NCBI RefSeq assembly: GCF_009914755.1
Contig: NC_060931.1
Source of the DNA: the human T2T-CHM13v2.0 reference genome, Homo sapiens
DNA: 64,000 nt
Strand: one strand, 5' to 3'
The notes beneath the pieces were generated by a model. The model had not been told where the DNA came from. It was given only the letters and a program-made list of their open reading frames with translations, and searched no databases. Below, piece by piece: positions 37,731 to 46,110 of this stretch. Position numbers and translations under genes: made by a program. Every line of letters starts with the position of its first letter. Within the stretch, counting starts at the first letter, position 1.

Positions 37731-39705
37731 TGTTCTCAGAGTGCAGAAGTCCTGTGTAGGGGGCTTTCCAACATTCCAACTACATTTATTCAAAAAACAT
37801 TTACTGAGAGCTACCTGCTTGCAAAGCACCATGAAGCCTCTGTAGTTGATAAACACATAAACATGACACTTTTCTTGACCTTGGGAAACTTATTCTCCAT
37901 TAAAGGAGATGAATATGGGAATAACAAATGACCCTTCAAGGCTGGATATAGGGTACTTGGTTGTGGTTGTGGGTGGGTCAGGGCTCTTCAGCTTACATTT
38001 TGTGGCAGAGAATCTTCTTTGGAGAATCCATGCTTTTGGGATTCCTCATTTTACCTATTAGAGCACAAATCTATGCTTATTTTCTCTGTTGTGTATGGTG
38101 AGTTCTGTACTTTTGTTTTGAACATATGTCATGAAAAGACAAAGATTTTTTTCCCAGGTATTTTATTACTCAAGTTTCAAAAACATTACAGAAAATAAAC
38201 AATAAAGAAATATGACTAAGTAACACAGGACTTCCAAACTTTTCCCTCTTAGGGAATGAAATAAATAATATCATCCTAAAGATAAAGACCTTAATTTATT
38301 CTCTAACTTGGATAACCCACTGGGAAAAACCTTGATATTCATAGATAGAAGGGTGAGAGAAACCAGTCCTGCTAGAACTGCTCTTTCAGTTGTCAGCACA
38401 TTTTAATGAAGTGCCAGTCTTTTCATGCCAAATTCTGAAGGAAATCTCTGGGTACCAAATGATGAAATGATTTCATTCCCAAATGGCATCTAAAGTAAAA
38501 TAAATCCTCTCGCATTTTGCAGAGCACGGCACTCTACAAGTTCAAAAGGTAAAACATACTTGCAGTATGTATAAACTGTGGAGTACATTTGAAAATAAAA
38601 TTTTTAATTATGTTGGACATTTCAGGCCCAGCGCTGTCATCCTGAAGAAAAGTAACATCTGTTTTGACATCTCCAGTGGTAGAGACTTTAAATCAGTTTC
38701 CACATTGCTTATCTGCTGGCTAATCAGAATGGATGCAGTATTCTTACCAACTCATTGACAGGGAAAAAAGAAAAGATATGCAGAGAAATAGGGTAAACTA
38801 AAACTGATATGATGAATTTAAATGAAAAATGTAATGGCCTTTGCATATATTATATCTAAACTTTCATTCAATGTAAAATTTGATAATTTCATTTAATTCC
38901 TAACTGTACAGAGATTTATTTTTCTTTCCTCTTCCTGATGTATACCTTTGCTTCCACTTAAATATAATAAAACATTAAAGCATATTTTACTTCTCAAACT
39001 ATTTAGTTTCATCTTAAACTCAAGGTTTGAATTGGAGAAAATTGATTTGTTATTTTCAATAAGATGTGCTATAAAAATGCAGGATTTCAAACTGCAGGTA
39101 TTAGAAAAACATCATGTCATATTGTTTCTTTAGTGGTTATATAGTCTTAACATCTCTTGACTTATTACAAACATTAGATTTAAAAGCATAGTCAATAAAA
39201 ACTGCTCCCTACAGGAATTGTAACTTCCATGTCTTCCGTGTTTTTGAAACTTTCTTAAAGCTATACCAACTTAGTTTTAGGTATCTCTTATAAAGAAAAA
39301 AAAAATATTTCCACTTGAATAAGTCAGGACTTCCCTCAAAACTTTACCTGGATTATTTGGGTAGTAAGTGGGTTACCTCTGTTCTCTTTCTTTCTTTTTG
39401 TATATGTAGGCATAAACTTCATATTGCTACTTAAGCACTGACCTATTCATTGTAAACTGGTTGAGTTACAAAAAATTACATATAAAGTTTTCAGTCCAGT
39501 GGACCAACTCAGTTAAGCCATTTTGTTAGTATAGATGTTAGTATATATGCAGCCTGAGTTAATAGAGAAGCTGGGAGAAGCTTACAGTGGTCTTTATTGT
39601 TAAATATATGGGAGGACAATCCTTCAACCAGATTAATACTATGAAGGACTTGTGTGTTCTTCAAAGAAAATGGCAGAATTTAAACAAAGGAACCTAAAAG
39701 TGATC

Positions 39706-40177
39706 TTTCATGCGCGTCCGTGTGAAGAGACCACCAAACAGGCTTTGTGTGAGCAACATGGCTGTTTATTTCACCTGGGTGCAGGCGGGCTGAGTCTGAA
39801 AAGAGAGTCAGCGAAGGGAGATAGGGGTGGGGCCATTTTATAGGATTTGGGAAGGTAATGGAAAATTACAGTCAAAGGGGCTTGTTCTCTGGTGGGCAGG
39901 GGTGGAGCTCACAAAGTACATTCTCAAGGGTGGGGAGAATTATAAAGAACCTTCTTAAGGGTGGGGGAGACTACAAAGTAACTTCTTAAGGGTGGGGGAG
40001 ATTACAAAGTACATTGATCAGTTAGGGTGGGGTAGGAACAAATCACAATGGTGGAATGTCATCAGTTAAGGCTGTTTTTACTTCTTTTGTGGATCTTCAG
40101 TTACTTCAGGCCATCTGGATGTATACATGCAAGTCACAGGGGATGCGATGGCCTGGCCTGGGCTCAGAGGCCTGACA
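39706..40177 (-). mobile_element. HERV-H 3' LTR (LTR7Y-like)
   Basis: Minus strand reads TGTCAGGCCTCTGAGCCCAGGCCAGGCC...GGACGCGCATGAAA. AATAAA at 39765-39770. PPT adjacent at 40178-40190. Confidence 0.95.
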
Positions 40178-41282
40178 TTCCTGCCTTCTTATATTAATAA
40201 GACAAATAAAACAAAATAGTGTTGAAGTGTTGGAGCGGCGAAAATTTTTGGGGGGTGGTATGGAGAGAGAATGGGCGATGTTTCTCAGGGCTGCTTCAAG
40301 CGGGATTAGGGGCGGCGTGGGAACCTAAAGTGGGAGAGATTAAGCTGAAGGAAGATTTTGTGGTAAGGGGTGATATTGTGGGGTTGTTAGAAGAAACATT
40401 TGTTGTGTAGAATTATTGGTGATGGCCTGGATACGGTTTTGTATGAATTGAAAAACTAAATGGAATAAGAGAAGGAGAAAAACAGGTATAAAAGGTCTAA
40501 GAATTGGGATGACTCAGGACATCTGATTAGAGAGTGCCTAAGGAGATTCAGCATAGCCCTGCCAGCAATGATTATTTATTTACTTCAGGAGTTAAGAATG
40601 GCAGTTTGAGGATAGCACGAGGCAAGCGTGATCAGGGTGAGGAACAGGAAAGAAAGAAATATGGGGAAATGGGGTGAATATCAGGTGGATCAGAGAGATA
40701 CAGTCATGGGGGTCAGGTGTGGTATCAGGAATAATGTGGGAGGCCAGATTGAAGTCCGGGCCAGGAACAATGGTAATTGTGGGACTTAAAGAGTGAGTAC
40801 AGCTGAAGAAGCTGGGGAGCATAAAGTATATGCATCAGGTATGAGGAAGAAAATAGATTTTGGAAGTTATGAGAAATGTAGAGAGTGAGTTGAGCATAGT
40901 TTGTGATTTTTAGGGCCTCTAACAGTATTAAAGCAGCGGCAGCCACTGCACGCAGACATGAGGGCTAGGCTAAAACAGTAAGGTCAAGTTGTTTGGACAG
41001 AAAGGCTACACGGTGTGGTCCTGGCTCTTGTGTAAGAATTCTGACCACACTAACCATGCCTAGGAAGGAAAGGAGTTGTTCTTTTGTAAGGGATTGAGGT
41101 TTGGGAGATTAATCAGACACGATCAGCAGGGAGAGCATGTGTGTTTTTATGCGAATTATGCCGAGATAGGTAACAGATGAGGATGAAATTTGGGCTTGAC
41201 TGAAGTAATGGGAGCTGTCTGTGAAGACTTGTGGCAGTACAGCCCAGGTAATTTGCTGAGCCTAATGGGTGTCAGGGTCAGT

Positions 41283-41675
41283 CTAAGTGAAGGCAAAGAG
41301 AGGCTGGGATGAAGGGTGCAAAGGAATAGTAAAGAAAGCATGTTTGAGATCCAGAACAGAATAATGGGTAGTAGAGGGAGGTATTGAGGATAGGAGAGTA
41401 TATGGGTTTGGCACCACGGGGTGGATAGGCAAAACAATTTGGTTGATAAGGCGCAGATTCTGAACTAACTTGTAAGCCTTGTCTGGTTTTAGGACAGGTA
41501 AAATGGGGGAATGGTAAGGAGAGTTTATAGGTTTTAGAAGCCCGTGCTGTAGCAGGCGAGTGATCACAGGCTTTAATCCTTTTAAAGCGTGCTGTGGGAT
41601 AGGATATTGGCGTTGAGCGGGGTAAGGGTGATTAGGTTTTAATGAGATGGTAAGGGGTGCATGATCAGTCGCCAA
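41283..41675 (-). pseudogene. HERV-H pol, reverse-transcriptase N-terminal remnant
   Basis: QYPIP...SPYHSPILPVLKP...LVQNLRLIN...YSVLDLKHAFFTIPLHPSSQPLFAFT. No YXDD segment follows. Confidence 0.92.
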
Positions 41676-41693
41676 GGAGGGAGTAGAGGTCTC

Positions 41694-42053
41694 TTATACT
41701 TGTGGGTTAAGGTGGGGGAATACAAGAGGAGGATGCAAAGGAGGCTTTGGATTGGGAGGAAGGGCAGCAATGAGATGCAGCTGTAGTCCAGGAATAGTCA
41801 GGGAAGCAGATAATTTGGTTAAAATATCTTGGCCTAATAAGGGAACTGGGCAGGTGGGGATAACTAAAAAAGAGTGCATAAAAGAGTATTGTCTAAGTTG
41901 GCACCAGAGTTGGGGAGTTTTAAGAGGTTTAGAAGCCTGGCTGTCAATACCCACAACAGTTATGGAGGCAAGGGAAACAGGCCCTTGAAAAGAAGGTAAT
42001 ATGGAGTGGGTAGACTCCGTATTGATTAAGAAGGGGACGGGCTTACCTTCCAC
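41694..42053 (-). pseudogene. HERV-H protease remnant
   Basis: FLINTESTHS replaces the DTGA catalytic motif; the CPVPLLGQDIL motif is present. Confidence 0.9.
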
Positions 42054-42133
42054 TGTGAGAGTTACCGGAAGCTCGGCGTCCGTGATGGTCTACGGCGCTT
42101 CCAAGGCGATCGGGCAGCATCAGTCTTCAGCCG

Positions 42134-42460
42134 CTAAGCCGAGAAGGAGTCAGTCAGAGAACATTGGGCCAGAGTTCCAGGGGCTCTGGGAGTGGCTGCC
42201 AGGTGAGTTGAACAGTCCAATTTCCAGTGGGGTCCCGCACAGATGGGACACAGCTTAGGAGGAATCCTGGGCTGCAGGCATTCCTTGGACTGGTGGTCAG
42301 ATTTCTGGCACTTGTAGCAAGCTCCTGGGGGAGGAGGTTCTGGAGGAACGCCTGGCCGCTGCGGTTCAGGCGTTTGGAAGTTCTTGTGTGCTGGAGATGT
42401 GGCTGGGGTTTGTCTCACAGTGGAGGCAAGGAATTGCAACTTTTTTCTATTATTGTACAC
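42134..42460 (-). pseudogene. HERV-H gag nucleocapsid remnant with two zinc knuckles
   Basis: CYKCQKSDHQSKEC (CX2CX4HX4C) and CPICAGPHWKLDC. Confidence 0.9.
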
Positions 42461-43960
42461 CTTGAAGGAGAGGTTAATTAAATCCTGTTGTGGGGTTTGA
42501 GGGCCGGAATTTAATTTTTGGAGTTTTATTTAATGTCGGGAGCAGATTGGGTAATAAAATGTATATTGAGAATAAGATGGCCTTTTGACCTTTTAGGGTC
42601 TAGGGGTGTAAAGCCTCTCAGGGTTGCTGCCGAACAAGCCATGAACTGGGCTGGGTTTTTATATTTGATGAAAAAGAGCCTAAACGCTATCCAATTTGGG
42701 ATAAAGAAAAAGGAGCATTAACCTTGACTATGCCTTTGGCTCCAGCCACCTTTTTAAGAGTAAATTGCTGGGCAGGTTGGGGAGGGCTAGTCACGGAACG
42801 AAACTGTAAGCCTGACCAGGTGTGAGGAGGGGAGGCAATAAAAAGATTATAGGGTGGAGGAGCAGAGGCTGAGGAAGCATTGGGACCTAGCTCGGCCTGG
42901 CAAGGAGGGGAGAGGTCAGATGGGTCTGTAGAAAAGGAAGATTAGAAAGACTCAGCGACGCTTGGGGTTGGGACTGAGGGGACAGGCAGGAGGGAAAGAA
43001 GGAAGATTTGGGAGGAGTTGCACTGGGCACAGAGACTAGGAAGGGACTGATGTGTAAAAGAATGCCTGAACGTCAGGCACCTCAGACCGTTTGCCTATTT
43101 TACGACAAGAATTATTTAGATCTTGCAGGATGGAAAAATTCAAAGTGCCATTTTCTGGCTATTTGGAACTACTGTTGAGTTTGTATTGGGGTCAAGTGGC
43201 ATTGCAGAAGAAAATAAGGCATTTAGGTTTTAGGTCAGTTGTGAGTTGAAGAGGTTTTAAGTTCTTGAGCCACAGGCTAAGGGAGAAGAAGGAGGAATGG
43301 AGGTTGGAAGGTTGCCCATAGTGAAGGAAGCAAACCCAGAGAAAAGAGAGTGTAGAGACACGGAGGGAAGGGGTTTGGGGGTTCTTGCCCCCTAGAAAAG
43401 AGGGACTTGCCACTAAGGGTGAAGGAGAAGGGGTTGAGGGGTACTTGCCCCTGCCCCAGGAAAGCGGGACTTGCCGCTAAGGGTGAAGGAGAAGGGGTTG
43501 AGGGGTACTTGCCCCTGCCCCAGGAAAGCAGAGAAGGGGTAGAGACAAGGAGAGAAGGGGTTGGGGTACTTGCCCCTTCCCTGGAAAAGCAGAGAAGGGG
43601 TAGAGACAAGGAGAGAAGGGGTTGGGGTACTTGCCCCTTCCCCAGAAAAGCGGGACTTGCCGCTAAGGGTGAAGGACCAAGGCAGGCGTCCCTGCATGGT
43701 CTGACACCCTTGAAACGTGGGTGTATAATCAGAGAGGTGTCCCTGCAATGATTAAACACCAAGGGAAGGCTGCCTTCCCAGTCAGTGACCGGCGCCGGAG
43801 TTTTGGGTCCACGGATAAAACGTGTCTCTTTTGTCTCTACCAGAAAATGAAAGGAATTGAAATTAAGAGAAGGGAGAGATTGAAGTGTAGCACCAAGATT
43901 GAAAGGAGAAAGAGGTTGAGAGATAGTGAGGGAAGTTGGAGAAGAGAGTAAAAAGAGGCC

Positions 43961-43969
43961 GCTTACCGG
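43961..43969 (-). promoter_or_regulatory. HERV-H major splice donor
   Basis: Minus strand AATCCG|GTAAGC, about 150 nt downstream of the 5' LTR. A second donor-like site GAAG|GTAAGC lies at 42041-42050. Confidence 0.8.
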
Positions 43970-44092
43970 ATTTGAAATTGGTGAGATGTTTCTTGGGCTG
44001 GTTGGTCTGAGGACCTGAGGTTGTAGGTGGATCTTTCTCACGGAGCAAAGAGCAGGAGGACGGGGATTGATCTCCCAAGGGAGGTCCCCCGA

Positions 44093-44110
44093 TCCTGGGT
44101 TTCGGCACCA
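44093..44110 (-). other. Primer-binding site complementary to tRNA-Phe
   Basis: TGGTGCCGAAACCCAGGA matches the tRNA-Phe PBS TGGTGCCGAAACCCGGGA at 17/18 positions. The His PBS would be TGGTGCCGTGACTCGGAT. Confidence 0.9.
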
Positions 44111-44112
44111 AA

Positions 44113-44583
44113 TTTCATGCGTGTACATGTGAAGAGACCACCAAACAGGCTTTGTGTGAGCAACATGGCTGTTTATTTCACCTGGGTGCAGGTGGGCTGA
44201 GTCTGAAAAGAGAGTCAGCGAAGGGAGATGGGGTGGGGCCATTTTATAGGATTTGGGAAGGTAATGGAAAATTACAGTCAAAGGGGCTTGTTCTCTGGTG
44301 GGCAGGGGTGGAGCTCACAAAGTACATTCTCAAGGGTGGGGAGAATTACAAAGAACCTTCTTAAGGGTGGGGGAGACTACAAAGTACCTTCTTAAGGGTG
44401 GGGGAGATTACAAAGTACATTGACCAGTTAGGGTGGGGTAGGAACAAATCACAATGGTGGAATGTCATCAGTTAAGGCTGTTTTTACTTCTTTTGTGGAT
44501 CTTCAGTTACTTCAGGCCATCTGGATGTATACGTGCAAGTCACAGGAGATGCGATGGCCTGGCCTGGGCTCAGAGGCCCGACA
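44113..44583 (-). promoter_or_regulatory. HERV-H 5' LTR (LTR7Y-like) promoter/enhancer
   Basis: TATAAAA at 44242-44248, ~31-bp U3 tandem repeats, and five CCCCACCC (KLF/SP-type) motifs. Confidence 0.9.
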
Positions 44584-45308
44584 TGATCGAAATAATTTTT
44601 ATATTAAATATGCCTAAATAGTTAGAGATAGGCCATATTTAAAAATCTGATTTACAAAACAAAAAGAGACAGGATTATAAAAAAAAGAATGTCACCATTA
44701 ATAGCAAAATAATGGTTTACTATCTTTTCTTTGACTTTATTTATAGTAGAAACACAGTTTATAGGTCACAGTAGTAAACACGGTTCAGGCCTCCTCTTTA
44801 TTAAAGATTAAAAATGTTTAGATGAACCTGCATTTTCTTTAATGCCAGAGTGAACGTCAGTAAAAACAGTATTTGGCAAAGCAGCTATTAGTTTTTGATG
44901 GGTTAAAATAGATACATCGTCTAGACTTTTTTGCTTATAAATTGTCATGATGCCATTTTTGGATGAGTTGTAAATATAATTCCTCCCTTCATCCTTGCCA
45001 CTCCATCCTAGAATTCTATATTATTTCTTCAAAGTATAGAATATATTACATATTCTCCATAATTGCATAAATTACTGTCAATGTTTAATTCTCAGTACAT
45101 CTATTGATATGATTGGGCTGTGTGTCTCCACCCAAATCTCATATTGAATTTGGATCCCTCATGTTAGACTTGGGGCCTGTTGGGAGGTTATTGGATCATG
45201 GAGGTGGTTTCTAATGGTTTAGCACCATTCTCCTAGTGCAGTCTTGTGATAGAGTTCTCATGAGATCTGGTTGTTTGAAAGTGTGTAGCATCTTGCCCTT
45301 TGCTGTTT

Positions 45309-45310
<2 letters not shown>

Positions 45311-45342
<32 letters not shown>

Positions 45343-46110
45343 CCCCTCCCCCCTCTCTCCCTCTCCCTCTCTCCCTCTCCCTCCCTCTCTCCCTCTCCCT
45401 CCCTCTCTCCCTCTCCCTCCCTCTCTCCCTCTCCCTCCCTCTCTCCCTCTCCCTCCCTCTCTCCCTCTCCCTCTCCCTCCCTCTCTCCCTCTCTCCCTCT
45501 CTCCCTCTCTCCCTCTCTCCCTCTCTCCCTCTCTCTCTCTCACTCTCTCTCCCTCTCCCTCTCTCCCTCTCTCCCTCTCCCTCCCTCTCTCCCTCTCCCT
45601 CCCTCTCTCCCTCTCCCTCCCTCTCCCTCCCTCTCTCCCTCTCCCCCTCTCCCTCTCCCTCCCTCTCTCCCTCTCTCCCTCTCTCCCTCTCTCTCTCTCA
45701 CTCTCTCTCCCTCTCTCCCTCTCCCTCCCTCTCTCCCTCTCCCTCCCTCTCTCCCTCTCCCTCCCTCTCTCCCTCTCCCTCCCTCTCTCCCTCTCTCCCT
45801 CTCTCCCTCTCTCCCTCTCTCCCTCTCTCCCTCTCTCCCTCTCTCTCTCTCTCTCTCACTCTCTCTCACTCTCCCTCTCTCTCTCCCTCCCTCTCTCCCT
45901 CTCCCTCTCCCTCTCCCTCCCTCCCTCCCTCTCTCCCTCTCTCCCTCTCTCTCTCTCACTCTCTCTCACTCTCCCTCTCTCTCTCTCCCTCCCTCTCTCC
46001 CTCTCCCTCCCTCCCTCCCTCTCTCCCTCTCTCCCTCTCTCCCTCTCTCCCTCTCTCCCTCTCTCTCTCCCTCCCTCTCTCTCTCTCTCTCTCTCCCTCT
46101 CTCTCTCTCC
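45311..46110. repeat. ~800-bp polypyrimidine (CT/CCCT) compound tandem repeat
   Basis: Almost purely C and T, with 18-mer ctccctccctctctccct and 10-mer ctccctctct units and rare ctca interruptions. Confidence 0.97.

What the first reader, a model, noticed from the sequence alone, without database searches (positions are those of the whole stretch)
44085..44112. HERV-H provirus with a switched primer: tRNA-Phe PBS instead of tRNA-His
Seen: right after the 5' LTR the minus strand reads TGGTGCCGAAACCCAGGA-TCGGGGGACC. On the + strand, cgatcctgggtttcggcacca matches the recalled human tRNA-Phe(GAA) 3' end CGATCCCGGGTTTCGGCACCA at 20/21, and the mismatch looks like CpG decay. The rest of the element is plainly HERV-H, whose PBS is normally TGGTGCCGTGACTCGGAT (His). 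Known: rare Phe-primed HERV-H ('HERV-H/F') copies have been reported. Inference: mis-priming by tRNA-Phe (both PBSs share TGGTGCCG) was copied into this provirus or its parent. That could change which 3' tRNA fragments or PBS-binding KRAB-ZFPs silence it.
Basis: partly seen in the sequence, partly recalled or inferred. Interest (0 to 1): 0.8.

Follow-up and report, generated by a model that had tools for sequence, protein, structure and literature searches.

The report
HERV-H provirus with tRNA-Phe primer site
This is an ordinary, defective HERV-H retrovirus fossil whose 18-base primer-binding site carries a copy of the end of tRNA-Phe instead of the family's usual tRNA-His, a rare footprint of a replication slip whose mechanism is already understood.

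Summary
The 18-mer TGGTGCCGAAACCCAGGA lies at 44110-44093 on the minus strand, two bases (TT) after the 5' LTR. It matches the complement of the 3' end of human tRNA-Phe(GAA) at 17/18 (20/21 extended). The one mismatch is a CpG transition. The element is a 4,878-bp deleted HERV-H provirus (39706-44583, minus strand). It has a GATCA target-site duplication, LTRs 2.1% apart and gag/pro/RT remnants. All 29 scored relatives (93-97% identical) have the same flanks around a His PBS. Genome-wide, 660 copies have the His PBS in this context and only 2 have Phe. On a tree built without the PBS columns, this copy sits inside a starred clade with 18 His copies. It lies far from an older LTR7-like lineage that uses Phe throughout (19 copies on the tree, split 100/100). 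The second canonical Phe copy is not its sister. tRNA-Phe most likely mis-primed a His-type genome, and the plus-strand copy of the primer was kept. Phe PBSs in HERV-H are already published (57 of 532 chains) and the mechanism is textbook, so this is a clean new example of a known kind. Effects on silencing are untested.

The parts
44584..44588 (-). Target-site duplication GATCA, upstream copy
   Evidence: the 5' flank ends ...tcGATCA just before TGTCGGG. A 5-bp TSD is stated for the HERV-H group in PMC4798954.
44113..44583 (-). 5' LTR (471 nt, LTR7-family type, starts TGTCGGG and ends GCATGAAA), with a 31-nt U3 repeat x3.6 at 44310-44421
   Evidence: It differs from the 3' LTR by 10 substitutions and 1 indel over 472 columns.
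44111..44112 (-). TT spacer between U5 and the PBS
   Evidence: The same TT is present in 27 of the 29 His-type relatives; the other two read GT and CT.
44093..44110 (-). Primer-binding site TGGTGCCGAAACCCAGGA, complementary to the 3' 18 nt of tRNA-Phe(GAA) at 17/18
44090..44092 (-). TCG after the PBS. The T makes this region 1 nt longer than in His-type copies. It is either the last base of the old His PBS or a copy of tRNA position 58. The CG is shared with the normal leader.
   Evidence: (alignment).
42718..44089 (-). Leader / 5' gag region with a 61-nt tandem repeat at 43390-43676
   Evidence: The LTR plus the first part of this leader (window 43650-44582) is 93-97% identical to His-type copies.
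42526..42717 (-). Gag capsid (p30) fragment
   Evidence: PF02093, E 0.0033, below the curated cut-off, so weak.
42134..42529 (-). Gag nucleocapsid with CCHC zinc knuckle
   Evidence: PF00098, 21.2 bits against a cut-off of 20.8.
41694..42089 (-). Retroviral aspartyl protease remnant
   Evidence: PF00077, E 1.4e-09.
41283..41693 (-). N-terminal part of reverse transcriptase. The rest of pol and env gave no match, so this is a deleted form.
   Evidence: PF00078, E 6e-06, 26.5 bits, below the cut-off of 29.6. None of the ORFs tested downstream of here matched a Pfam family.
40178..40190 (-). Purine-rich tract AAGAAGGCAGGAA directly before the 3' LTR (polypurine-tract position)
   Evidence: read from the sequence; the function is inferred from its position.
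39706..40177 (-). 3' LTR (472 nt, starts TGTCAGG and ends GCGCATGAAA)
39701..39705 (-). Target-site duplication GATCA, downstream copy

Best explanation
This is a deleted, non-coding HERV-H provirus of the canonical His-primed lineage. Its PBS was overwritten by a copy of the primer tRNA in the round of reverse transcription that produced it, or in an unfixed immediate parent. The proposed steps are as follows. The 3' end of tRNA-Phe(GAA) annealed to the His PBS of the genomic RNA and primed minus-strand synthesis. Plus-strand strong-stop DNA then copied the 3' 18 nt of that tRNA. After the second strand transfer the PBS was a His/Phe heteroduplex, and repair or replication kept the plus-strand (Phe) version. 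The extra T after the 18-mer is what this model predicts if the 3' ...GGGA of the Phe copy paired one base out of register with ...CGGA of the His PBS and was then extended. Read-through of tRNA position 58 would give the same T. After integration one CpG in the PBS decayed (G to A). Shown here: the sequence, the tRNA match, the unchanged flanks, the position on the tree and the rarity. Inferred: the priming event itself and how the heteroduplex was resolved.
For: The PBS matches tRNA-Phe at 17/18, using tRNA genes found in this genome. The differences from His-type copies are confined to the PBS core (TGACTC becomes AAACCCA). Both flanks, GAAA-TT and (T)CGGGGGACCTCCC, are those of all 29 scored relatives, and all 29 carry the His PBS. 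On a tree of 51 rows and 693 columns with the PBS columns removed, this copy lies in a starred clade (98/96) with 18 His copies. The older Phe lineage (19 rows) is split off at 100/100 by a branch of length 0.14. Genome-wide there are 660 His PBSs in this flank context and 2 Phe PBSs. Among the 9 copies with exact flanks and a non-T at PBS position 9, the other 7 are point-mutated or 1-nt-deleted His PBSs. Mis-priming is feasible: the His and Phe PBSs agree at 13/18 including the first 8 nt. The predicted duplex of the tRNA-Phe 3' end with the His PBS is -27.8 kcal/mol, against -36.3 for a perfect complement, and 0 of 1000 shuffles score as low. The second canonical Phe copy (L133) has the same Phe-18-mer-plus-T junction although it is not a sister. 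Two further loci show tRNA-Phe copies next to LTR7-type LTR ends: L055 has 28/29 nt of the tRNA and L090 has a tandem Phe+His PBS. The intact GATCA duplication shows a single integration with no later exchange between proviruses. [quoted passage not shown]
Against: The event itself cannot be observed. The first 8 nt and the last GGA(T) are shared by the His and Phe PBSs, so the replaced tract cannot be bounded more tightly than about 7-19 nt. Only 40 of 3,361 candidate relatives were scored, so the true nearest relative may not be on the tree. The genome-wide pattern searches nevertheless found no sister with this PBS. Phe-PBS relatives do exist in the genome and could in principle have donated the PBS by recombination. 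I did not compare the PBS with every human tRNA; only Phe was tested directly, and His was represented by the family's PBS.
Confidence: 0.75

Rival explanations
1. The Phe PBS was acquired by template switching during reverse transcription. The donor would be a co-packaged RNA of a Phe-PBS HERV-H, either the older LTR7-like Phe lineage ('Type A') or a low-copy canonical Phe lineage like L133.
For: 23 Type A loci and L133 carry Phe PBSs. The two LTR7-type copies with Phe have different U3 types, so mosaicism in the family is plausible.
Against: Type A flanks differ right at the PBS...gaCA-TT upstream and GGGA-CAGGAGGAC downstream with no extra T. Both crossovers would therefore have to fall within about 4 nt upstream and 0 nt downstream. 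Compared with L133 there are no shared rare substitutions outside the PBS and identity is only 91.7%, against a median of 95.4% to His copies. A starred branch separates the two copies. Type A terminal branches are long (0.044-0.3), whereas this copy's is 0.024.
Confidence: 0.13
2. The PBS patch arose after integration, by gene conversion from another Phe-PBS ERV or from a tRNA-Phe gene.
For: There are many possible donors: 96 Phe-PBS-like sites and at least 5 tRNA-Phe genes.
Against: The conversion tract would have to be no more than about 20 nt and coincide exactly with the PBS. The 18-mer carries TGG, the copy of the CCA end that is added after transcription and is absent from the tRNA genes, so a tRNA gene cannot be the donor. 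The same junction in the independent copy L133 fits a replication mechanism better.
Confidence: 0.05
3. The His PBS drifted to look like Phe by ordinary point mutation.
For: His PBSs do decay. One search lists 7 variants and searches show many CpG transitions. RetroTector sometimes labels such decayed sites as F (PMC4724089).
Against: This needs about four specific substitutions plus a 1-nt insertion, all towards Phe, in an element whose LTRs differ by only 2.1%. None of the 7 decayed variants approaches Phe.
Confidence: 0.01

Closest known systems
Canonical HERV-H (LTR7-family LTRs, deleted RTVL-H-like internal region, tRNA-His PBS)
   Same: It shares the LTRs, the TT spacer, the leader, the gag-pro-RT remnants and the 5-bp target-site duplication. 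Identity to other copies is 92-97%.
   Different: The PBS core reads Phe rather than His, and the region is 1 nt longer. I could not name the LTR7 subfamily (7, 7B, 7Y and so on) because no repeat library was available.
Older LTR7-like Phe-PBS HERV-H lineage ('Type A' in my notes; probably most of the 57 'F' among 532 canonical HERVH chains of Vargiu 2016, PMC4724089)
   Same: It has the same Phe PBS and related LTR and leader sequence: 70-92% identity in LTR segments and 69-83% in the leader.
   Different: The flanks differ (gaCA-TT, then CAGGAGGAC), the lineage is separated at 100/100 on the tree, and the copies are much older. It is not HERVH48: the HERVH48 consensus LTR end in Vargiu's supplement matches a different group of 15 loci. 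The link to Vargiu's 57 is an inference, because their Table S1 is an .xls file that I could not read.
Experimental and natural PBS switches by alternative tRNA priming (MuLV, HIV-1/SIV, ETn/MusD), as reviewed in PMC7472051, which cites Colicelli and Goff 1986 and Fennessey 2019 (I saw the reference list only, not those papers)
   Same: The PBS takes on the sequence of the tRNA that actually primed, while the flanks stay parental. The copy is inherited through the plus strand.
   Different: This is a fixed germline fossil a few million years old, and the priming event is inferred rather than observed.
HERV-F / HERV-Fc / HERVH48 families (Phe-primed relatives of HERV-H)
   Same: They use the same tRNA-Phe PBS.
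   Different: The LTR and leader are unrelated at the level tested. Their flanks give no BLAST hit to this element's leader, and the LTR gives only weak 37-93-nt hits in six HERVH48-like loci.

Membership tests
HERV-H provirus (LTR7 family / HERVH-int) | Two LTR7-type LTRs flanking the element | tested here: met
   The LTRs are 471 and 472 nt and differ at 11 positions. The LTR plus leader is 93-97% identical to 29 other genomic copies. The name 'LTR7' is recalled, as no repeat library was available to me.
HERV-H provirus (LTR7 family / HERVH-int) | 5-bp target-site duplication | tested here: met
   GATCA is present on both sides. A 5-bp TSD is stated for HERV-H in PMC4798954.
HERV-H provirus (LTR7 family / HERVH-int) | Gamma-like gag-pro-pol internal sequence of HERV-H type | tested here: met
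   Pfam finds zf-CCHC, RVP and RVT_1 (the last below its cut-off). Positions 41283-42529 are 92-97% identical to 39 other loci, and at least 11 of them lie downstream of loci with a verified His PBS.
HERV-H provirus (LTR7 family / HERVH-int) | PBS complementary to tRNA-His (the trait behind the name) | tested here: not met
   The PBS matches His at 12/18 and Phe at 17/18. PBS type is acknowledged to be an unstable taxonomic marker (PMC4724089), so I still file the element under HERV-H.
Older Phe-PBS HERV-H lineage (Type A) | Flanks gaCA-TT and CAGGAGGAC, and clade membership | tested here: not met
   The flanks are the canonical ones, and the tree splits the lineages at 100/100.
HERV-F / Fc / HERVH48 | Family-specific LTR and leader next to a Phe PBS | tested here: not met
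   These loci gave no BLAST hit to this leader, and only weak 37-93-nt hits to the LTR in six HERVH48-like loci. They form separate flank groups.
PBS switch by alternative tRNA priming | The new PBS equals the 3' 18 nt of another cellular tRNA including the CCA end, with parental flanks | tested here: met
PBS switch by alternative tRNA priming | Demonstrated use of that tRNA as primer | not testable with these tools
   This needs an experiment. Only duplex feasibility was computed.

The most novel reading that the evidence does not exclude
Canonical HERV-H kept a low but measurable ability to be primed by tRNA-Phe, the primer of all its relatives (Type A HERV-H, HERVH48, HERV-F/Fc) and so probably its ancestral primer. 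The genome holds at least four independent footprints of this. Two are clean swaps with the same +1 T junction (this locus and C7:127235218). One is a tandem Phe+His PBS (C23:110981779). One is an LTR followed by 29 nt of tRNA-Phe that reads past position 58 (C8:138345332). Together they give a natural estimate of fixed mis-priming (about 2 in 662) and a fossil view of how plus-strand transfer copes with a mismatched PBS. Through tRNA-Phe 3' fragments and ZNF486, this one locus may escape the PBS-directed silencing applied to its His-type siblings or gain a different one.
Probability: 0.4. Interest if true: 0.45.

Novelty: new member of a known kind. Interest (0 to 1): 0.3.

Why it matters
The locus gives a clean natural example of the rule that a retroviral PBS is rewritten by whichever tRNA actually primes. 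It shows that Phe PBSs in HERV-H have two origins: an old lineage that uses Phe throughout, and very rare single swaps inside the His lineage. This matters for anyone who classifies HERVs by PBS, or who maps PBS-directed silencing by tRNA 3' fragments or KZFPs such as ZNF486. This copy and its near-identical His-type siblings form a natural matched pair differing in essentially one element. It does not change how HERV-H is understood.

Tried and rejected
- The tRNA scan of the window found no tRNA gene.
- Six full-text paper searches (one search failed on term format) found no paper describing a PBS-only Phe swap inside canonical HERV-H. The group-level count in Vargiu 2016 was the closest. 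Jern et al. 2004/2005 on HERV-H variation (recalled) are not in the searchable library and may cover it.
- Vargiu's Tables S1 and S6 (per-locus PBS calls) are .xls files that I could not read. I therefore could not check whether this locus is among their 57 'F'.
- I considered that Type A might be HERVH48. I rejected this because the HERVH48 consensus LTR end in Vargiu's supplement matches another flank group.
- Single-linkage clustering of flanks merged the HERVH48-like, Type A and canonical loci into one cluster of 41. I split that cluster by reading the flanks printed.
- I considered an assembly artefact and dismissed it: the context is unique and the TSD intact in a complete assembly.
- The regex missed locus L125. 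The alignment shows that it too has the His PBS.
- No ape genomes were available, so I could not check orthologues.

Full report
**What is there.** On the minus strand the window holds a provirus from 44583 to 39706 (4,878 bp).
- The 5' LTR runs 44583-44113 (471 nt, TGTCGGG...GCATGAAA).
- It is followed by TT (44112-44111) and the 18-mer TGGTGCCGAAACCCAGGA (44110-44093), then TCGGGGGACCTCCC....
- The 3' LTR runs 40177-39706 (472 nt) and is preceded by a purine-rich tract.
- Both ends are flanked by GATCA. This 5-bp duplication is the size reported for the HERV-H group (PMC4798954, passage read).
One search places the exact 28-mer at window 44083-44110 and shows it is unique in the genome at up to 2 mismatches.
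- The LTRs differ by 10 substitutions (5 at CpG sites) and one 1-nt indel over 472 columns, which is 2.1%.
- Between the LTRs, Pfam finds a weak capsid fragment, a CCHC zinc knuckle, a retroviral protease and the start of reverse transcriptase. Nothing matches further downstream. This is a deleted, non-coding copy.

**The tRNA match.** I took the tRNA sequence from the genome rather than from memory.
- The exact 15-mer TGCCGAAACCCGGGA has 18 genome hits and none for the reversed control.
- Nine hits are ERV PBS places already seen. Of the other nine I fetched five, and ARAGORN calls all five tRNA-Phe(GAA).
- The complement of gene plus CCA reads TGGTGCCGAAACCCGGGATCGAACCAGGG.
- The window matches it at 17/18, and at 20/21 if extended. 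The mismatch is G to A in a CpG.
- In register, the window's 18-mer matches the family's His PBS at 12/18.
- I did not compare it with every human tRNA.

**Is the element really HERV-H?** Three results bear on this.
- A genome search with the LTR plus leader (933 nt) scored 40 of 3,361 candidates and returned 29 other loci as sequence. By local BLAST they are 93-97% identical. All 29 carry TGGTGCCGTGACTCGGAT or CpG-decayed versions of it, between the same GAAA-TT and CGGGGGACCTCCC flanks.
- The gag-pro-RT stretch (41283-42529) has 39 other hits at 92-97%. At least 11 lie 1.5-2.9 kb downstream of loci whose His PBS I saw.
- The flanks of the other Phe-primed families give no BLAST hit to this element's leader. 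The LTR draws only weak 37-93-nt hits in six HERVH48-like loci.

**How rare is this, and do Phe copies form a clade?** TGGTGCCGAAACCCRGGA at up to 1 mismatch has 96 genome hits against 5 for the control. I fetched all 96 and grouped them by their flanks:

| Group | Loci |
|---|---|
| Older LTR7-like lineage, '...gtgaCA TT' + Phe PBS + 'CAGGAGGACTCC' ('Type A') | 23 |
| HERVH48-like (the LTR end matches the HERVH48 consensus in Vargiu's supplement) | 15 |
| Other ERV-like clusters | 20, 17, 6 and 2 |
| Singletons | 10 |
| LTR end of the canonical GAAA-TT type | 3 |

- The three canonical-type loci are this one plus two aberrant ones (L055, L090).
- A CpG-tolerant 32-mer search at up to 3 mismatches found only this locus and C7:127235218 (L133).
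- The equivalent His context has 660 hits.
- With exact canonical flanks and any non-T at PBS position 9 there are 9 hits. Two are the Phe copies and seven are point-mutated or 1-nt-deleted His PBSs.

I then built a tree of 51 rows and 693 columns with the PBS columns removed.
- Type A (19 rows) is separated from all canonical rows at 100/100 by a branch of 0.14.
- This copy sits in a starred clade (98/96) with 18 His copies, and L133 lies outside that clade.
- The bootstrap had not fully settled (correlation 0.986).
- The His sample was chosen by similarity to this copy, so it is not a random sample.
- This copy and L133 are 91.7% identical, against a median of 95.4% between this copy and the His copies. 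They share no rare substitution outside the PBS.

There is one old Phe clade, and there are rare separate swaps inside the His lineage.

**Mechanism.** The change from the His-type sequence is confined to the PBS core (TGACTC becomes AAACCCA), with one extra base overall.
[quoted passage not shown] Either version can then be inherited. The review cites cases of alternative priming (PMC7472051, passages read).
- Mis-priming by tRNA-Phe is plausible. The two PBSs agree at 13/18 including the first 8 nt. The predicted duplex of the tRNA-Phe 3' end with the His PBS is -27.8 kcal/mol, against -36.3 for a perfect complement, and 0 of 1000 shuffles score as low.
- The extra T is expected if the 3' GGGA of the Phe copy paired one base out of register with CGGA of the His PBS before extension. 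Read-through of tRNA position 58 would also produce it. This point is my inference.
- L133 has the same junction. Type A does not, which argues against recombination with Type A.
- The TGG at the start of the PBS copies the CCA end, which is absent from the tRNA genes. This rules out gene conversion from a tRNA gene.
- I put mis-priming at 0.75, recombination with a Phe-PBS relative at 0.13, conversion after integration at 0.05, and drift at 0.01.

**Comparison with the literature.**
- Vargiu et al. [quoted passage not shown] They call PBS usage an unstable trait (PMC4724089, main-text passages read).
- They also note that some low-scoring 'F' calls are decayed His PBSs. One of their examples, tggtgccgcaactcggat, is the sequence at C8:116339720.
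- I infer, but could not check, that most of their 57 are Type A copies. Their per-locus tables could not be read.
- ZNF486 is reported to bind PBS-Phe sites (PMC10602909, passage read).
- LTR7_HERVH is reported to have stayed active until the ancestor of Homininae (PMC11458898, passage read). That fits the low LTR divergence here.
- My six paper searches found no description of a PBS-only swap in canonical HERV-H. The older subscription papers on HERV-H variation are not searchable here.

**Verdict.** It is a tidy new example of a known phenomenon in a family where Phe PBSs are already on record. The proposed consequences for silencing are untested. Interest 0.3.

Noticed in passing
L133 = G000:C7:127234418-127236049 (PBS at locus positions 801-818): This is a second canonical-flank HERV-H with a Phe-like PBS, TGGTGCCAAAACCGGGGA (16/18 to Phe), and the same extra T before the leader. 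It has a different LTR7-type U3 and an older terminal branch (0.079). It is not a sister of the window's copy.
   Followed up: partly
L055 = G000:C8:138344532-138346149 (oriented positions 801-829): An LTR7-like LTR end (cttgaaa-TT) is followed by 29 nt matching the complement of tRNA-Phe at 28/29. The match reads past the 18-nt PBS into the T arm. About 36 nt that look like the inverted 5' end of an LTR follow, and then unrelated DNA. It looks like an aberrant reverse-transcription product.
   Followed up: partly
L090 = G000:C23:110980979-110982596 (oriented positions 801-839): This locus has a tandem PBS: gcatgaaa-TT-TGGTGCTGAAACCCAGGA-A-TT-TGGTGCCGTGACTCGGAT, followed by the normal HERV-H leader. 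A Phe PBS sits directly upstream of a His PBS in one canonical-type element.
   Followed up: partly
23 loci, e.g. L003, L014, L015, L036, L081: An older LTR7-like lineage always has a Phe PBS, with flanks gaCA-TT and CAGGAGGACTCC, and is split from canonical HERV-H at 100/100. HERVH48-like and Fc-like relatives also use Phe, so Phe may be the ancestral primer and His a single later switch. This is an inference because the tree is unrooted.
   Followed up: partly
G000:C8:116339720-116339756: The PBS here is TGGTGCCGCAACTCGGAT. This is the same sequence that Vargiu 2016 lists as a low-scoring RetroTector 'F' only two mismatches from His. Some published 'F' calls in HERVH are therefore decayed His sites.
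   Followed up: no
window 45311-46109: An 800-bp (TC)n-type simple repeat (period 8/18, 84% matches) lies about 730 bp beyond the 5' LTR.
   Followed up: no
window 44113-44130 compared with 39706-39723: Three of the 11 LTR-LTR differences fall in the last 15 nt of U5. Two of them are CpG losses in the 5' LTR, next to the decayed CpG in the PBS. This may reflect heavier methylation at the 5' LTR/PBS junction.
   Followed up: no
window 43390-43676; 44310-44421 and 39904-40012: There is a 61-nt tandem repeat (about 4.6 copies) in the leader and a 31-nt repeat (about 3.5 copies) in the U3 of each LTR.
   Followed up: no
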